From Octopus sinensis (taxonomy: Eukaryota), in assembly GCF_006345805.1 (NCBI RefSeq), contig NC_042998.1, positions 144,708,001-144,772,000 on the forward strand: a DNA stretch of 64,000 nucleotides. Reading direction: 5' to 3'. The first letter of the stretch is position 1; each line of letters begins with the position of its first letter. Shown piece by piece: positions 9,001 to 63,700 of this stretch. Position numbers: made by a program.

Positions 9001-12000
9001 AAAAACCCTGCACAAACCTAGCTGATTGAATGAGCTATTAATCAAACAATCAATTAGTTAATTGGTTAAATGGTTAACCAACTTGCCTGATAATAATAAA
9101 AAGTGAAATAGAGCCAATGGATGGGTTTACAATTCACATAATGAACCTCCTGAGATACAACAAAGATAACATTAAGTTTTCATGTGTAGTACAAACCCAT
9201 AATTCTTAGGTTTAAAAATCTGGAAAAAATGATATTTTACATGAGAAAACAGTAATAGTATTGGTTTCTAGGTTGTTGTGGGTTGAGTTTAGTTCCTCTT
9301 TACATCCAGCCCTAAATAGTAGAAACTCACTCTCTGTTAATGTTCAGGTTTACTTTGAGAAAATACAAACCCTACCTATAAACATTTCAAGCTAAAAATC
9401 AAACCAGTATAGAGGGCTTATATTGAAGCAGGTTATAAAATAGGAATTAGGAAGCTTGAAGGTATTATAAACTAATATAAATACTGTAAAGTGGCTCATG
9501 TTAGGAAGTGTATCCAACCATAGAAACCATGCCAAAACTGAGTCATTAAAAGCAGAATGTGGTCTTCTGAGTTTACAGATTCTATCAAAGCATCCGGCCC
9601 AATTCAGCATGGAAAGTGAATTTTATGATAATGATGATGATGTAATGCGATGATTTATTTAAAAAAAATATGTTAGCAGAGCTGAATACATGTTTATTAG
9701 ATCTGTCAGGTCCTGCTAGCACAACACAACATCATAAATATTAAAATGTATTATTGCATTGAGGTTGAGGGTTGAATTTCAATTTTAAACTGGATGACAT
9801 TAAATAAATCAAGCATAAAATAAAAATACAAAACATAAGCTGTGTGAATTTTTTTTTTAAAGTTTGAACTTTGCACTTTCTAATTCCCTCAATGAATTAT
9901 CCTAGATTATGTTAGGGTTTCATTCTGTTTGGCAAAGTTAAATTTAACTTTTATTTAAAACTTTTACATTAGCTAGATGCATGGCTGTGTGGTTAAGAAG
10001 CTCACTCGAGTCTCACTGCATAGCACCATGGGTAAGTGTATTCTATATACAACTTAACCTCAGGACAACCATTGTCTTGTAAGTGAATTTGGTAAATGGG
10101 AACTGTGTGAAAGCCCATTGTGTGTGTGTGTATATATACACACATACTTATACATATACGTGTATGTTGCCCCCCCTCCCCCTAATCACTGCTTGACAAT
10201 TGGCATAATTTTGTACTTAGCAGTTTTGCTAAAAGGATTCATAGAACAAGTATCAGATTTCAAAAAAATAATTACTGGGGTCAATTTGTTCAACTAAAAC
10301 CTTTCAAGACAGTAACCCAACATAGCTGTCAACGCTGGATTAACCACAAAATAAGCATATGCTTAGGGCATCAGGGGAAAGGAGGTACCACAGAAATGGT
10401 AAATAGTTTGTGACACAAAAACAATCACTTGAAACTTGCTGAAATGATATTCAGGATGCTTTATCTCTACTAAGTAAATATAGAAACGAATGTATTAAAT
10501 AAGATTAATTTTGAGGATCTGACTAAAGACTTAGCAATTAAAAAAGATAGGAGAAAACTTTTCTAATATATATAAAATCGAAGTATACAAAAATACACAT
10601 TATTTTCCATCTTACTCTTAGTATTGTTTCATTTTGAATAATAAAAATGCATTTTTTTTGGCTTATTATTGTTTACATTTTGAATTACATATATATACTC
10701 TCTTTACTCTTTTACTTGTTTCAGTCATTTGACTGCGGCCATGCTGGAGCACCGCCTTTAATCGAGCAACTCGACCCCGGGACTTATTCTTTTGTAAGCC
10801 CAGTACTTATTCTATCAGTCTCTTTAGCCCAACCGCTAAGTAACAGGGACATAAACACACCAGCATCGGTTGTCAAGCAATGCTAGGGGGACAAACACAG
10901 ACACACAAACACACACACGCATATATATATATATACATATATACGACGGACTTCTTTCAGTTTCCGTCTACCAAATCCACTCACAAGGCTTTGGTCGGCC
11001 CGAGGCTATAGTAGAAGACACTTGCCCAAGGTGCCACGCAGTGGGACTGAACCTGGAACCATGTGGTTGGTAAAGAAGCTACTTACCACACAGCCACTCC
11101 TGCGCCTATATGGGGGCATCAAAATTTTTTTTAAGTGCTTAGGGCTTCTATGAGTCTTAATCAGGCCATGATGGCTGCAGTCTATTGACAGAAAAGTAGA
11201 AGAATAAAAATGTAATTTCACAATTCTTTTTTCTTTTTTGTGTGTGTGTTTGGAATAAGGCATTAAAAAACATTGACTGTTGAGTAAATGACAGCAGAAA
11301 TCCTTGCCCAGCATTAAAAAAATTGTTTTTAAAAAAAGAAGAAAACACACAAGGTCATAATGTTATTACATGTGTGAAGCAATTTACACAGAAAAACAAA
11401 GAAAATTAAATGAAAGTTCTCCCAAATTATTAAACAGAAGAAAGGGTTACAAAATCACATAAAATAAGCAGGAAAATTTAAACAAAACCAGTTAAAAGAG
11501 GTGAGAGGTTTGTATTGCTGATAGTAAACATCAAATGCACTCATAATACAAGGTTTCAAAGCAAAAGCAAATACTAAGAGATGATCTATGCATCATGCTA
11601 GCAAGGGGAAAATTTGATGGAATAAATGGAAGCAATGAGCAGTGTACAGTTAGAGACAAGAGAATATTAGTGGAGATGTGCTATTGTTGAAGACTAGAGT
11701 GAGTAGATGCAGCTAGAATCTTATCAAATATTTCTGCTCCTTCAGTTCCAGAGCAGCCACATGATCACAGGGATATGACAGCAGTGCGCACTCACCATGA
11801 TCTTTTCTCGGCACAACTTGTCTCTTTTCCTAACATCAGTTTTTTCAGCTTTCAATCTTTCAATTTCAAGTTCTTTGTTCTGTGAGAAATCACACATTAT
11901 TTTGTTTTATCAAGTCTATTTGCTATAACATATGCCCATTGAGTATTTACACATTGTGAGTCAAATACTTTGCACCAACTACTGCAAGTTAATGCAACAT

Positions 12001-60700: not shown

Positions 60701-63700
60701 TTAGTGTATTTCCATTCTCCATTCAGATTTTCCAAAGTCATTCCCAAGCAGTTTGAGAAAAGAGCAATAACAATTATTTGATGACAAGTTCAGGCCAGAA
60801 AATTCACCCAGAGATTCAGATCTTGATGCAAGTATATAATAGTGTTTTATTCTAGTAAACTACATTTACACAATCAGAAATGGCTTCTACAAAGAAGTTC
60901 AATCTGTAATGGTAATGTCACAGGCAGATCCTCCCAACAACCATCAAAGTCAACTAGGCCAGATTTATTCTAACCCTAACTATAATCCACACATTATATC
61001 TAGAGGGTTGATCAATTAACTGAAACTGAGTTTTACTTCATAGTTATCTGTTGGGTAGCTCCTAGCTGGTTTTTAACAGAAGTTTTAACATCCACATCAG
61101 TAGAAAGTTACTATTCCATGTGTTCTAGCTATGCTCTGTCCATGTTTGGCATATTGTATAAGTTTCATCCTTGTAAGAATGAGAAGGGGAATATAAGATA
61201 GAGTGGCTGTTTTATGTGAGGTGCTGATAGAAGTATAATGGGAGGAACAGATATATTGTGAGGGAGTGGTAGTGAACAGTAACACAAAAGACAGTGTTGA
61301 TGGTGATGGGGGGAGGAGAATAATGGAAGAGACAGGAGCAAGGGTAAGGGATACTGAAGTAGGAGGAGATAATGAGAAAGAGAAAAAGAGAGTGATGTGG
61401 ATAATAAGGTGGGTCGAGTGGGGGGGACCTCATGTTGTCCCACATTATGTGTGTGTGTGTAGTACACACACACACACATATACACATGCAAACTCAGAGG
61501 ATAATAGAAAGACCACAATTTCAAGTTGTCAAATGGTGGTGGTGGTGGACAAACACAGACACACACATATATATATATATTACACACACTAAGCTTCCAC
61601 AGAGTTTCTGTCTACCAAATTCAACCATGAAGGATTGGTCAACCTGTAGCAATAGTAAAAGATACTTGCCCAAGATGCCACACAGTGGAACTGAATGTGA
61701 AACTATAGAATTACAAATCAAGCTTCTTATCCACATAGCTATGCCTACGCCTATAAGAGTACATATGTCTGCAGAGGGATTTGAACCTGTGATCCTCAGA
61801 TCACTATTGGATTAGTCTTAAAAGGTTAAATATTCATTTATTATTTTATTTATTTCAGTCATTTGACTGTGGTCATGCTGGAGCACCATCTTGAAGGATT
61901 TTAGTCAAACAAATCGACCCCAGAACTTATTGTTTCAGCCTAGTACTTATTCTATTGGTCTCTTTTGCTGAATTGCTAAGTTACGGGGATGTAAACACAT
62001 CAACACTGGTTGTCAAATGGTGATGGGGGGGGGGGGACAAACACAAATGGCTTCTTTCAGTTTCTGTCTATCAAATCTACTCACATGGCTTAGGTTGGTC
62101 CTAGGCTATAGTAGAAGACACTTGCTCGAAGTGTCATACAGTGGAACTGAACCCAGAACCATGTGGTTGGGAAGCAAGCTTCTTACCACACAGCTACACC
62201 TGCACCTTTCTGACTAATATTAATTCTAATAAATCTAACTTGAAATTTGACAGCACAATTACATTTATTTTTTATTATGCTTTGACAATTGGAAAGGAAC
62301 AATAGTAAAACAAGACCATTTATGTTGTAATGAAGGATGATAAAAATAATGTGGATAACAATGAAACTAGGTTAGAAGCTTTATTGTTGCCTAATTAGGA
62401 ACAATAACATTTCTGAGTGCCACATAGGAATAGGTGTGGCTATGTGGATAAGAAGCTGGTTTCCAGACCATGTTATCTCAGGTTCAATCCCTCAGTGTGT
62501 ACTCAGGGCAAGTATCTTCTACTATAAAGTCAAACTGGTCAAAACCTTATGAGTGGATTTGAAAGATGGTAACTGGAAGAAGTTAATCATATGTGTGTGT
62601 GTGTGTGTGTGTGACATCCAGAAAAGGATGGTCTTTGTCATACAGGTGATGTTCAGCTCTAGTCTTCTATGAAAAATATATCTGATCAAGGGGGATATAT
62701 TATCTTGCCTACAAATAGGTGAGGGTTGGTGACAAGAAGGATGTATAGCTGTAGAAAACTTATCTCCTTTAACAAATTGCAAGGAAAGAAAAGTGGATGT
62801 TAAAATGATGATGATGATGATGAGAGGAAAACCAGAAAAGGATGATCTTAGAGGAAGCTTGCATATTGTATAGCAATATTTGATAAGATGAGAAAGAGAA
62901 TTTAGAATGGTAAGAGTTTTCTCTAAATATCAGATATATATATGTAGGGTCTTGTCTTGCCACTTAGAGACCACACTAATGCCAACATGAACTAAAAAGC
63001 ACCCAGTACACTCTGTAAAATGGTTGGCATTAAGAAGAACATCCTGTCATAGAAACCATGGCAAAGCAGACATTAGAGTTTGATGCAGTCCTCTGACTCA
63101 CCATCTCCTGTTGAACTACCCAACTCATGCTACTATAAAAATTGGATGATGAGACTCATGAAACTAATGTGGAAGAAATTTAACAACTGACCATTAGACT
63201 GGTCAAGTGTTGAATTCCTACATATAAATATAATAAATATATAGAAGGAATAGCACAATGAAAATATACCTTTATTAATTTATCCTGGTGTGCAATAGTT
63301 TTCTGGTTCTCAGCCAATTCATCCTTCAGTGACTCAGTTGAATCAGATAACCATTTGTCACTAGCCATCTGCTTCTAGAAACACAAAAATAGTTGAGCCA
63401 AAGGAATAATTTGCATACATCTCATTCACACAAACATACATATATACACACACGCTGCACAAGCATAGCTGCACAGGTTAAATCAACATGGTTTTTAGTA
63501 GGATGGCAATTACAGTGACTAAATGCTCTTCCCAATAGTAAAAAATGAAGGTTTTTACAATTGTATAGCCCCTTTTTTTTTTCAAAATAAAAATAAACCA
63601 AAAAACAAAACATTGTAGAGATTGTCCTTCAATAGAAGATAATTTTTACTGTACATTCTCAATCAAAATTTACTGTCAATTTGCTTTCTTGTTTGACAAC

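What the first reader, a model, noticed from the sequence alone, without database searches (positions are those of the whole stretch)
11796..63374. One exon per repeat: array of symmetric 84-nt exons building a modular coiled-coil rod
Seen: 17 phase 0-0 exons over 52 kb. Eleven are exactly 84 nt (28 aa, 4 heptads); the others are 105, 126, 75 (x3) and 66 nt. Each 84-nt exon is one copy of xLExQLExExxx(R/K)KxxENKE(Q/R)RLxDKIK, with core positions at 2, 6, 9, 13, 16, 20, 23 and 27. Established: 28 residues is the repeat of myosin II and paramyosin rods, and the motif resembles myosin-tail/cingulin segments. Inference: the rod grew by tandem exon duplication. Any 84/105/126-nt exon can be skipped without losing frame or heptad register, so splicing could tune rod length in ~4-nm steps, like a molecular ruler or filament-forming protein. 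I do not recognise the gene.
Basis: partly seen in the sequence, partly recalled or inferred. Interest (0 to 1): 0.85.

Follow-up and report, generated by a model that had tools for sequence, protein, structure and literature searches.

The report
Octopus citron kinase coiled-coil exons
The 17 small exons are real and encode part of the long coiled-coil stalk of the octopus citron kinase gene, an annotated cell-division kinase whose stalk was lengthened in cephalopods by repeated duplication of a 28-residue exon.

Summary
On the minus strand, 17 phase 0-0 exons lie between 11796 and 63374: eleven of 84 nt, three of 75, and one each of 105, 126 and 66. All 17 acceptors are AG; 16 donors are GT and one is GC.

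The gene is annotated. Exon by exon, the translations match residues 707-1188 of Octopus sinensis citron rho-interacting kinase isoform X1 (P0012) at 482 of 482 residues. That protein has kinase, long coil, C1, PH and CNH domains.

Nine 84-nt exons are clear copies of one 28-residue unit. Two 75-nt exons are weaker copies, and the last two 84-nt exons are not detectably similar.

The unit occurs nine times in Octopus, Argonauta and a third cephalopod-like protein. It occurs in 0 of 114 other listed proteins, nearly all named citron kinase. Units are conserved by position, so the array is old and fixed.

Annotated isoforms skip only 2 of the 17 exons. Growth by exon duplication is supported. 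Free length tuning and a myosin-like filament are not. This is an ordinary gene with a modestly interesting, apparently undescribed lineage-specific feature.

The parts
63270..63374 (-). Exon 1 in window, 105 nt (35 aa); residues 707-741 of P0012
   Evidence: AG acceptor, GT donor, phase 0-0; 35/35 identical to O. sinensis citron kinase X1
60601..60675 (-). Exon 2, 75 nt (25 aa); residues 742-766; cassette exon in one annotated model
   Evidence: Splice sites; 25/25; absent from O. bimaculoides isoform X2, 1 of 12 Octopus models
58990..59115 (-). Exon 3, 126 nt (42 aa); residues 767-808
   Evidence: Splice sites; the single-exon search that identified the gene; 42/42
50453..50518 (-). Exon 4, 66 nt (22 aa); residues 809-830
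   Evidence: 22/22
50036..50119 (-). Exon 5, 84 nt; residues 831-858; first and most divergent copy of the 28-residue unit
   Evidence: 28/28
47892..47966 (-). Exon 6, 75 nt; residues 859-883; shortened copy of the unit (3 residues fewer)
   Evidence: profile E = 0.19; 25/25
44319..44402 (-). Exon 7, 84 nt; residues 884-911; repeat unit
36923..37006 (-). Exon 8, 84 nt; residues 912-939; repeat unit
   Evidence: Non-seed profile hit E = 3.7e-6
33755..33838 (-). Exon 9, 84 nt; residues 940-967; repeat unit
31167..31250 (-). Exon 10, 84 nt; residues 968-995; repeat unit
29281..29364 (-). Exon 11, 84 nt; residues 996-1023; repeat unit
   Evidence: Non-seed profile hit E = 2.2e-6
28789..28872 (-). 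Exon 12, 84 nt; residues 1024-1051; repeat unit
27383..27466 (-). Exon 13, 84 nt; residues 1052-1079; repeat unit
24842..24925 (-). Exon 14, 84 nt; residues 1080-1107; repeat unit
   Evidence: Non-seed profile hit E = 0.05
23612..23686 (-). Exon 15, 75 nt; residues 1108-1132; shortened, weakly similar copy; the heptad phase shifts after it
   Evidence: (E = 2.5)
17676..17759 (-). Exon 16, 84 nt; residues 1133-1160; AG acceptor but GC donor; not significantly similar to the unit
   Evidence: Sequence read; bounds fixed by the 28/28 match; donor shown; profile E = 15
11796..11879 (-). Exon 17, 84 nt; residues 1161-1188; cassette exon; not significantly similar to the unit
   Evidence: 28/28; absent from 5 of 12 Octopus models and from P0004, present in Argonauta

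Best explanation
The window lies wholly inside the citron Rho-interacting kinase gene (CIT; Sticky in Drosophila) of Octopus sinensis or a very close relative, transcribed from the minus strand.

The 17 exons encode residues 707-1188 of the 2498-residue protein. This is the middle of the long coiled-coil stalk that joins the N-terminal AGC kinase domain to the C-terminal C1, PH and CNH domains.

Nine 84-nt exons and two shortened 75-nt exons descend from one symmetric, phase-0 exon that encodes four heptads. That exon was duplicated in tandem in an ancestor of the cephalopods sampled here. The two further 84-nt exons, 17676-17759 and 11796-11879, have the same size and phase but no detectable similarity to the unit. 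Their origin by the same duplication is a guess.

The twelve exons from 50036 down to 11796 (residues 831-1188) add about 358 residues to the stalk. This is roughly 50 nm if fully coiled, at the recalled textbook rise of about 0.15 nm per residue. Since then each unit has been kept in place by purifying selection.

Splicing removes only units at the edges of the array in annotated models, which changes stalk length by one 3.7-4.2 nm step.

Shown: the exons, their identity, the domain architecture, the cephalopod-restricted repeat, the positional conservation and the isoform models.
Inferred: origin by exon duplication, the stalk-lengthening role, and any functional effect of the cassette exons.
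For: Gene identity:
- The single 42-aa exon hits an O. bimaculoides kinase at 98% identity.
- Each of the 17 exon translations is 100% identical, contiguous and in order in P0012, XP_036355921.1. Totals summed by me from the per-exon counts: 482/482 for O. sinensis, 480/482 for O. vulgaris, 468/482 for O. bimaculoides X1 and 397/482 for Argonauta.
- P0012 has Pkinase 85-349, Pkinase_C 368-410, C1 1880-1929, PH 1960-2072 and CNH 2108-2362.
- The kinase domain is closest to MRCK, ROCK and DMPK in the PDB.
- Nearly all named hits among the 120 best in other phyla are called citron kinase.

Repeat:
- Alignment A1.
- Self-identity at lag 28 is 0.34-0.36 in the 3 cephalopod-type proteins. It is about 0.16 in bivalves, deuterostomes and other phyla.
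- The unit profile hits 9 times in each of 14 full cephalopod-type models and 0 times in 114 other proteins.
- Residues about 821-1268 are mostly gapped in 11 non-cephalopod orthologues.

Age:
- Nucleotide identity among the nine core exons averages 51%, with third codon positions at 35% and flanking intron at 34-38%.
- The positional counterpart is the best match in 9/9 units (Argonauta) and 8/9 (P0004). Paralogues average 10.4 of 28 identical residues.

Coil: hydrophobic period 3.5 is far above shuffles.

Splicing: the deletions in isoform models coincide exactly with window exons 2 and 17.

Precedent for stalk length mattering: in ROCK2, a sister kinase, coil truncations of 5 nm or more abolish its cellular function (PMC4686654, passages read).
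Against: - No transcript data could be examined. The isoforms are database gene models, and I could not see their support.
- Exon structure in other species could not be checked, because no eukaryotic genome collection is on hand. 'One exon per unit' is shown only for this window.
- Coiled-coil alignments are unreliable, so the extent of the cephalopod-specific insert is approximate.
- Surface residues of the unit (columns 3, 7, 17-20, 25, 26, 28) are as conserved as core residues. That is more than a passive spacer needs.
- Columns 13 (basic) and 20 (acidic) fall on core positions. This would weaken an in-register parallel dimer.
- Exons 16 and 17 are not detectably similar to the unit, so their origin by the same duplication is a guess.
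Confidence: 0.85

Rival explanations
1. One reading: a freely tunable ruler. Any of the symmetric exons can be skipped, so splicing sets rod length combinatorially in about 4-nm steps, and the array is still growing.
For: All 16 introns are phase 0, and 84, 105 and 126 nt are whole heptad multiples. Two window exons are cassettes in annotated models. Two more segments outside the window, of 42 and 28 residues, also are, missing in 4 of 12 and 2 of 12 models. In ROCK2, stalk length in steps of 5 nm or more matters.
Against: 15 of 17 exons are present in 12 of 12 Octopus models. Every skipped unit lies at the edge of the array or outside it. Units are individually conserved by position (9/9 and 8/9), so they are not interchangeable. 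Unit number is equal in all three cephalopod-type proteins. Third codon positions are saturated, so there has been no recent growth.
Confidence: 0.12
2. A multivalent docking array. The repeated, conserved surface motif of each 28-residue unit binds several copies of a partner, for example a contractile-ring or midbody protein. The number of sites, rather than length, is what is selected.
For: Non-core columns are strongly conserved among paralogous units despite saturated silent sites: column 17 acidic in 10/11, 19 basic in 10/11, 20 acidic in 10/11, 18 N in 7/11, 3 acidic in 8/11, 28 basic in 9/11. In Drosophila Sticky the central coil (CC2a) carries the Anillin-dependent cortical targeting input, and CC1 binds microtubule-associated proteins and motors (PMC6743463, passages read). 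This reading is compatible with the main explanation.
Against: No partner is known. The motif is absent from all 114 non-cephalopod proteins, so it cannot be a conserved binding site for the known partners. Conserved charges could equally serve contacts between the two helices of the coil.
Confidence: 0.25
3. A myosin II or paramyosin-type rod: a filament-forming protein related to myosin tails or cingulin.
For: 28-residue period and a heptad pattern. Language-model neighbours include a Myosin_tail_1 cluster at score 0.94, but with only 112-139 shared features, which is below the level that marks true family members. Each unit is a charge dipole: columns 1-12 net -3.0, columns 13-28 net +2.6.
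Against: P0012 has no Myosin_tail_1 match at E <= 0.01 and no single exon has one at E <= 10. The protein has a kinase, not a motor. Charge power at periods 28, 14 and 28/3 does not exceed the 99th percentile of shuffles. Staggers of 14, 42 and 70 residues score unfavourably (-0.076, -0.077 and -0.071). With smoothing the best staggers are about 17-18 and 44-51 residues, with small scores.
Confidence: 0.03

Closest known systems
Citron Rho-interacting kinase (CIT-K in vertebrates, Sticky in Drosophila)
   Same: Same gene family and almost certainly the orthologue. It has the same order of kinase, Pkinase_C, long coil, C1, PH and CNH. Nearly all named hits among the best in molluscs, echinoderms, hemichordates, amphioxus and vertebrates are called citron kinase.
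   Different: The span from Pkinase_C to C1 is about 1470 residues in octopus. It is about 984 in chicken and 1211 in an oyster. The extra length includes the 28-residue exon array, which is absent from 114 of 114 non-cephalopod proteins examined.
ROCK1/2 and MRCK (DMPK-family kinases with a coiled-coil stalk)
   Same: Closest solved kinase domains: MRCK 384 bits, ROCK1 347, DMPK 329. In ROCK2 the stalk acts as a length-critical spacer (PMC4686654). This is the best precedent for how added or skipped 4-nm units could matter.
   Different: These are different paralogues. ROCK stalk length is reported as conserved across animals. The citron stalk varies widely among molluscs.
Myosin II and paramyosin rods (28-residue repeat)
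   Same: Four-heptad, 28-residue periodicity in an extended alpha-helical coil.
   Different: No sequence-family match. The charge pattern is different. The terminal domains are different. That myosin and paramyosin rods have a 28-residue repeat rests on recalled knowledge and on the titles and abstract openings listed.
Proteins built by tandem duplication of symmetric exons (collagen, nebulin and spectrin-type examples; recalled, not tested here)
   Same: One repeat per exon, all introns in one phase, so units can be added or skipped without a frameshift.
   Different: Here the unit is four heptads of a coiled coil inside a signalling kinase. The comparison with the named examples is from memory only.

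Membership tests
Citron kinase (CIT / Sticky) | N-terminal AGC kinase domain of the DMPK group with a Pkinase_C extension | tested here: met
   P0012 has Pkinase E = 3.3e-59 and Pkinase_C E = 1.6e-8. P0001's closest PDB chains are MRCK, ROCK and DMPK. The domain lies outside the window. The link is the 482/482 exon match to P0012.
Citron kinase (CIT / Sticky) | C-terminal C1, PH and CNH domains after a long coiled coil | tested here: met
   C1 1880-1929, PH 1960-2072, CNH 2108-2362 in P0012. MRCK shares this order (recalled), so architecture alone does not separate the two.
Citron kinase (CIT / Sticky) | Orthology: best matches in other phyla are citron kinases | tested here: met
   Of the 120 best hits listed, nearly all named ones are called citron Rho-interacting kinase or CTRO, across molluscs, brachiopod, nemerteans, echinoderms, hemichordates, amphioxus and vertebrates. 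A few are 'hypothetical' or unnamed. No reciprocal search or tree was made.
Citron kinase (CIT / Sticky) | Conserved Rho-binding homology region within the coil | tested here: inconclusive
   The best-conserved coil block is residues 1689-1800 of P0012, 44-48% identical to 11 non-cephalopod orthologues in three of its four 28-residue blocks and 35% in the other. I did not map the published 29-residue region onto it.
Citron kinase (CIT / Sticky) | Localisation to the cleavage furrow and midbody, and a role in late cytokinesis | not testable with these tools
   Known for vertebrate and fly proteins (passages read). No data for octopus.
Myosin tail / paramyosin rod | Match to the Myosin_tail_1 family | tested here: not met
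   None at E <= 0.01 for P0012. None at E <= 10 for 16 single exons (exon 16 was not in that call).
Myosin tail / paramyosin rod | 28-residue repeat of four heptads | tested here: met
Myosin tail / paramyosin rod | Alternating charge zones that favour staggers of odd multiples of 14 residues | tested here: not met
   Staggers of 14, 42 and 70 score -0.076, -0.077 and -0.071. Charge power at periods 28, 14 and 28/3 is below the 99th percentile of shuffles. Smoothed optimum staggers are about 17-18 and 44-51. This is my own simple calculation, not the published method.
Tandem exon-duplication repeat array | Each unit is bounded by introns of one phase | tested here: met
   16 of 16 introns are phase 0, and exon bounds equal unit bounds.
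Tandem exon-duplication repeat array | Units are homologous to one another | tested here: met
   Met for 9 of the 11 84-nt exons, with two 75-nt exons weaker. Not met for exons 16 and 17.
Tandem exon-duplication repeat array | Array absent from outgroup orthologues | tested here: met
   0 of 114 non-cephalopod proteins have a profile hit. No lag-28 signal in bivalves, deuterostomes and other phyla. This is protein level only. Gene structures of outgroups were not available.
Cassette-exon alternative splicing | Isoforms that lack exactly one exon | tested here: met
   Exon 17 is missing in 5 of 12 Octopus models and exon 2 in 1 of 12. These are annotation models.
Cassette-exon alternative splicing | Transcript reads across the skipping junctions | not testable with these tools
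   No RNA data on hand.

The most novel reading that the evidence does not exclude
The citron-kinase stalk is a hotspot of independent, lineage-specific repeat expansion in molluscs. The periods are 28 residues and one exon per unit in cephalopods, 24 residues in two caenogastropods, 14 residues in Gigantopelta, and a duplication of about 100 residues in Patella.

The cephalopod array, with its conserved charged surface and its cassette units at the edges, would then be an adaptive module. It would set stalk length or the number of partner sites for the needs of cephalopod cell division or neurons. (A kinase-less Citron-N form is neuronal in mammals, per the passage read.)
Probability: 0.2. 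Interest if true: 0.5.

Novelty: new member of a known kind. Interest (0 to 1): 0.3.

Why it matters
The gene is annotated, so nothing new is added at gene level.

What appears undescribed is that cephalopod citron kinase carries a stalk insert of about 50 nm, made of 28-residue units with one symmetric exon each. My literature searches found no paper on it. Other mollusc lineages have expanded the same stalk with unrelated repeats.

In the sister kinase ROCK2, stalk length is functionally critical. Natural length variants of the citron stalk, together with cassette exons of one unit, therefore offer a comparative test of whether stalk length matters for citron kinase too. This is of moderate interest to people who study cytokinesis or coiled-coil evolution. 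It is not a surprise of a new kind.

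Tried and rejected
- Pfam on 16 single exons gave only two sub-threshold chance matches, TolA_bind_tri (E = 0.012) and Peptidase_S68 (E = 0.18).
I searched the single 42-aa exon instead.
- I first took the 17.7-kb profile hit for a chance match or dead exon, because it has no GT donor. The database protein showed it is a real exon with a GC donor.
- A language-model neighbour search of the array gave only generic coiled-coil leads with low shared-feature counts. 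The first try failed on protein length.
- I looked for similarity between the introns flanking the repeat exons. Apart from a physical overlap of two query windows, there were only short matches that partly reach the exons and one 203-nt shared element upstream of exons 5 and 7, probably a dispersed repeat.
- A myosin-type charge periodicity was tested and not found.
- I looked for further exons of the gene in 1-11795 and 63375-64000 and found none at 85% identity or more.
- Not used: the search of protein representatives, structure prediction and fold search (a monomer model of a coil would say little), and genome contigs (bacteria and archaea only).
- The closed collections and paper supplements were not consulted. 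The supplementary figures of PMC4686654 on coil-length conservation were not seen.

Full report
WHAT IS THERE

The window is AT-rich (GC 0.33-0.45) and has no N. The feature lies on the minus strand.

A scan for open AG...GT segments, followed by reading the sequence, gave 17 exons between 63374 and 11796. Their sizes are 105, 75, 126, 66, 84, 75, then eight of 84, then 75, 84 and 84 nt.

All 17 acceptors are AG behind a pyrimidine-rich tract. Sixteen donors are GT. Exon 17676-17759 has a GC donor. All 16 introns are phase 0 and 333-8471 nt long.

IS IT MORE THAN CHANCE?

Shape alone is not. The window has 62 open AG-84 nt-GT segments on the minus strand and 56 on the plus strand.

The sequence is. 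A profile from six exons, run over all six-frame open pieces, gave 16 rows, all on the minus strand. Exons not used to build it scored E = 2.2e-6 (29281), 3.7e-6 (36923), 0.05 (24842), 0.19 (47892), 2.5 (23612) and 15 (17682 region). Exon 11796-11879 was not found.

So nine 84-nt exons are clear copies of one 28-residue unit. Two 75-nt exons (47892, 23612) are shortened, weaker copies (alignment A1). Exons 16 and 17 share only length and heptad character.

WHICH GENE

- Sixteen single exons had no meaningful Pfam match.
- The 42-residue exon alone found an 844-residue Octopus bimaculoides kinase at 98% identity (P0001).
- Searches with that stored protein and its relatives returned 'citron rho-interacting kinase' of O. 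vulgaris, O. sinensis, O. bimaculoides and Argonauta hians.
- Each window exon, translated on its own, is found at 100% identity, in order and without gaps, at residues 707-1188 of O. sinensis isoform X1 (P0012, XP_036355921.1). Adding up the per-exon counts gives 482/482 for O. sinensis, 480/482 for O. vulgaris, 468/482 for O. bimaculoides X1 and 397/482 for Argonauta.

The window therefore comes from O. sinensis or something very close to it. No other part of P0012 matches the window at 85% identity or more, so the whole window is internal to the gene.

P0012 has Pkinase, Pkinase_C, C1, PH and CNH domains in the order typical of citron kinase. The kinase domain's closest solved relatives are MRCK, ROCK and DMPK. 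Nearly all named hits among the 120 best in other phyla are called citron kinase.

THE REPEAT AND ITS HISTORY

Column statistics over the eleven 84-nt exons:
- Hydrophobic residues sit at columns 2, 6, 16, 23 and 27 (8-11 of 11) and at column 9 in 5 of 11.
- Column 13 is basic in 9 of 11 and column 20 acidic in 10 of 11.
- Several surface columns (3, 7, 17, 18, 19, 25, 26, 28) are as conserved as the core.

Hydrophobic power at period 3.5 is 3.92, against a shuffle 99th percentile of 0.76. The heptad phase runs unbroken through residues 884-1107 and has moved by four positions in the unit after the 25-residue unit at 1108.

Distribution of the unit:
- The unit profile hits nine times in each of 14 full-length Octopus, Argonauta or P0004 models. 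It hits once in the truncated P0001. It does not hit three partial O. bimaculoides models, whose coverage I did not check.
- It hits none of the 114 other proteins examined.
- Self-identity at lag 28 is 0.34-0.36 in the three cephalopod-type proteins. It is about 0.16 in bivalves, a nemertean, a brachiopod, echinoderm, hemichordate, amphioxus, chicken and alligator (22 proteins).
- In a 14-sequence alignment, residues about 821-1268 are mostly gapped in the 11 non-cephalopod orthologues. This is approximate, as coiled coils align poorly.

Signs of age:
- Core exons are 51% identical in nucleotides, 35% at third codon positions. Flanking intron is at 34-38%.
- Each unit's best match in Argonauta (9 of 9) and in P0004 (8 of 9) is its positional counterpart. 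Paralogous units share on average 10.4 of 28 residues.

The array is therefore an old, cephalopod-restricted expansion that is now fixed unit by unit.

SPLICING

Twelve Octopus gene models span the region: four from O. sinensis, two from O. vulgaris and six from O. bimaculoides.
- Exon 17 (11796-11879) is absent from 5 of 12. It is also absent from P0004 and present in Argonauta.
- Exon 2 (60601-60675) is absent from 1 of 12.
- The other 15 exons are in 12 of 12.
- Outside the window, a 42-residue segment (611-652) is absent from 4 of 12 and a 28-residue segment (1217-1244) from 2 of 12.

All deletions are exact exon-sized, in-frame units. These are annotation models, and I could not see their transcript support.

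HOW IT MOST LIKELY WORKS

In flies and vertebrates, citron kinase is a scaffold of the contractile ring and midbody. Its central coil carries the targeting inputs and partner sites (passages read in PMC6743463, and PMC13577275).

In the sister kinase ROCK2 the coil is a spacer whose length, not sequence, is critical. Truncations of 5 nm or more abolish its cellular function (PMC4686654, passages read).

By inference, the cephalopod array lengthens the citron stalk. The span from Pkinase_C to C1 is about 1470 residues, against 984 in chicken and 1211 in an oyster. Edge cassettes change it by one unit of 3.7-4.2 nm, at the recalled textbook rise of about 0.15 nm per residue.

The conserved charged surface suggests that the units also do something sequence-specific, either partner docking or contacts between the two helices. 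I hold that as a compatible second reading.

WHAT IS NOT SUPPORTED

- Kinship with myosin tails. There is no Myosin_tail_1 match. Language-model neighbours are generic coiled coils with low shared-feature counts.
- A myosin-type charge pattern. Each unit is a dipole, with columns 1-12 net -3.0 and columns 13-28 net +2.6. But charge power at periods 28, 14 and 28/3 stays under the 99th percentile of shuffles. Staggers of 14, 42 and 70 residues are unfavourable.
- Free combinatorial skipping and ongoing expansion are contradicted by the isoform and conservation data above.

LITERATURE

Full-text searches found no paper on repeats or exon structure of cephalopod citron kinase. The queries were:
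- 'citron kinase' + coiled-coil + exon + repeat: 18 papers, 12 listings seen, none relevant.
- citron + cephalopod: 18 papers, 10 listings seen, none relevant.
- exon duplication / coiled-coil / heptad / symmetric exons: 4 papers, 3 listed, none relevant.
- 'citron rho-interacting kinase' + octopus: 0 papers.
- '28-residue repeat' + coiled-coil + exon: 6 papers, 4 on myosin or paramyosin and 2 on frameshifts in tandem repeats, none on citron.

Supplements are closed. Those of PMC4686654 on coil-length conservation were not seen.

LEFT UNCHECKED

- Transcript evidence.
- Gene structures in other species.
- The taxon of P0004, which I did not trace.
- A dimer structure.
- Mapping of the Rho-binding region.

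VERDICT

The lineage-specific, exon-modular 28-residue array is real and apparently undescribed. It belongs to a familiar class, tandem duplication of symmetric exons.

Noticed in passing
window 17676-17759 (minus strand): The intron after this constitutive exon begins with GC instead of GT, so it is a GC-AG intron. A GT-only scan misses the exon.
   Followed up: yes
P0033, P0031, P0030, P0023 (proteins): Gastropod citron kinases carry their own unrelated tandem repeats in the same stalk: about 14 residues in Gigantopelta aegis, 24 residues in Littorina saxatilis and Babylonia areolata, and a duplication of about 100 residues in Patella vulgata. Bivalves and deuterostomes show none.
   Followed up: partly
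window 40372-43000 (plus strand, antisense to the gene, in the 7.3-kb intron between exons 7 and 8): A non-LTR retrotransposon copy. An open piece of 456 codons carries a reverse-transcriptase domain (RVT_1, E = 1.9e-27) and a weak PHD-like match, below that family's curated cut-off. It coincides with the window's GC peak of 0.446. The reading frame is interrupted upstream of this piece. I did not count the breaks in full.
   Followed up: partly
window about 54380-56310: Open pieces with peptides resembling the retrotransposon at 40-43 kb, on both strands. This looks like a second, degraded and rearranged copy. No Pfam match was found for the one piece tested.
   Followed up: no
window 20722-21574 (minus strand, in the intron between exons 15 and 16): Remnant of a mariner/Mos1-type DNA transposon: HTH_48 (E = 4.1e-19) and a partial DDE transposase domain (E = 6.8e-15), in separate open pieces.
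   Followed up: partly
window 4905-5174 (minus strand): A short reverse-transcriptase fragment (RVT_1, E = 3.4e-7) in intronic sequence downstream of the last exon in the window.
   Followed up: no
window 12682-13480: A tandem repeat of 296 bp, 2.7 copies, 99% identical, in the intron between exons 16 and 17. It produced several false 84-nt 'exon' candidates in the scan.
   Followed up: partly
upstream of exons 5 and 7 (within 400 nt of 50119 and 44402, minus strand): A shared element of 203 nt at 70% identity lies in the introns just upstream of these two exons. It is probably a dispersed repeat rather than a trace of the exon duplication.
   Followed up: no
columns 13 and 20 of the 28-residue unit (all 84-nt exons): Two positions that fall on the heptad core carry conserved charges: basic in 9 of 11 and acidic in 10 of 11. 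This is unusual for a stable in-register parallel dimer and is unexplained.
   Followed up: partly
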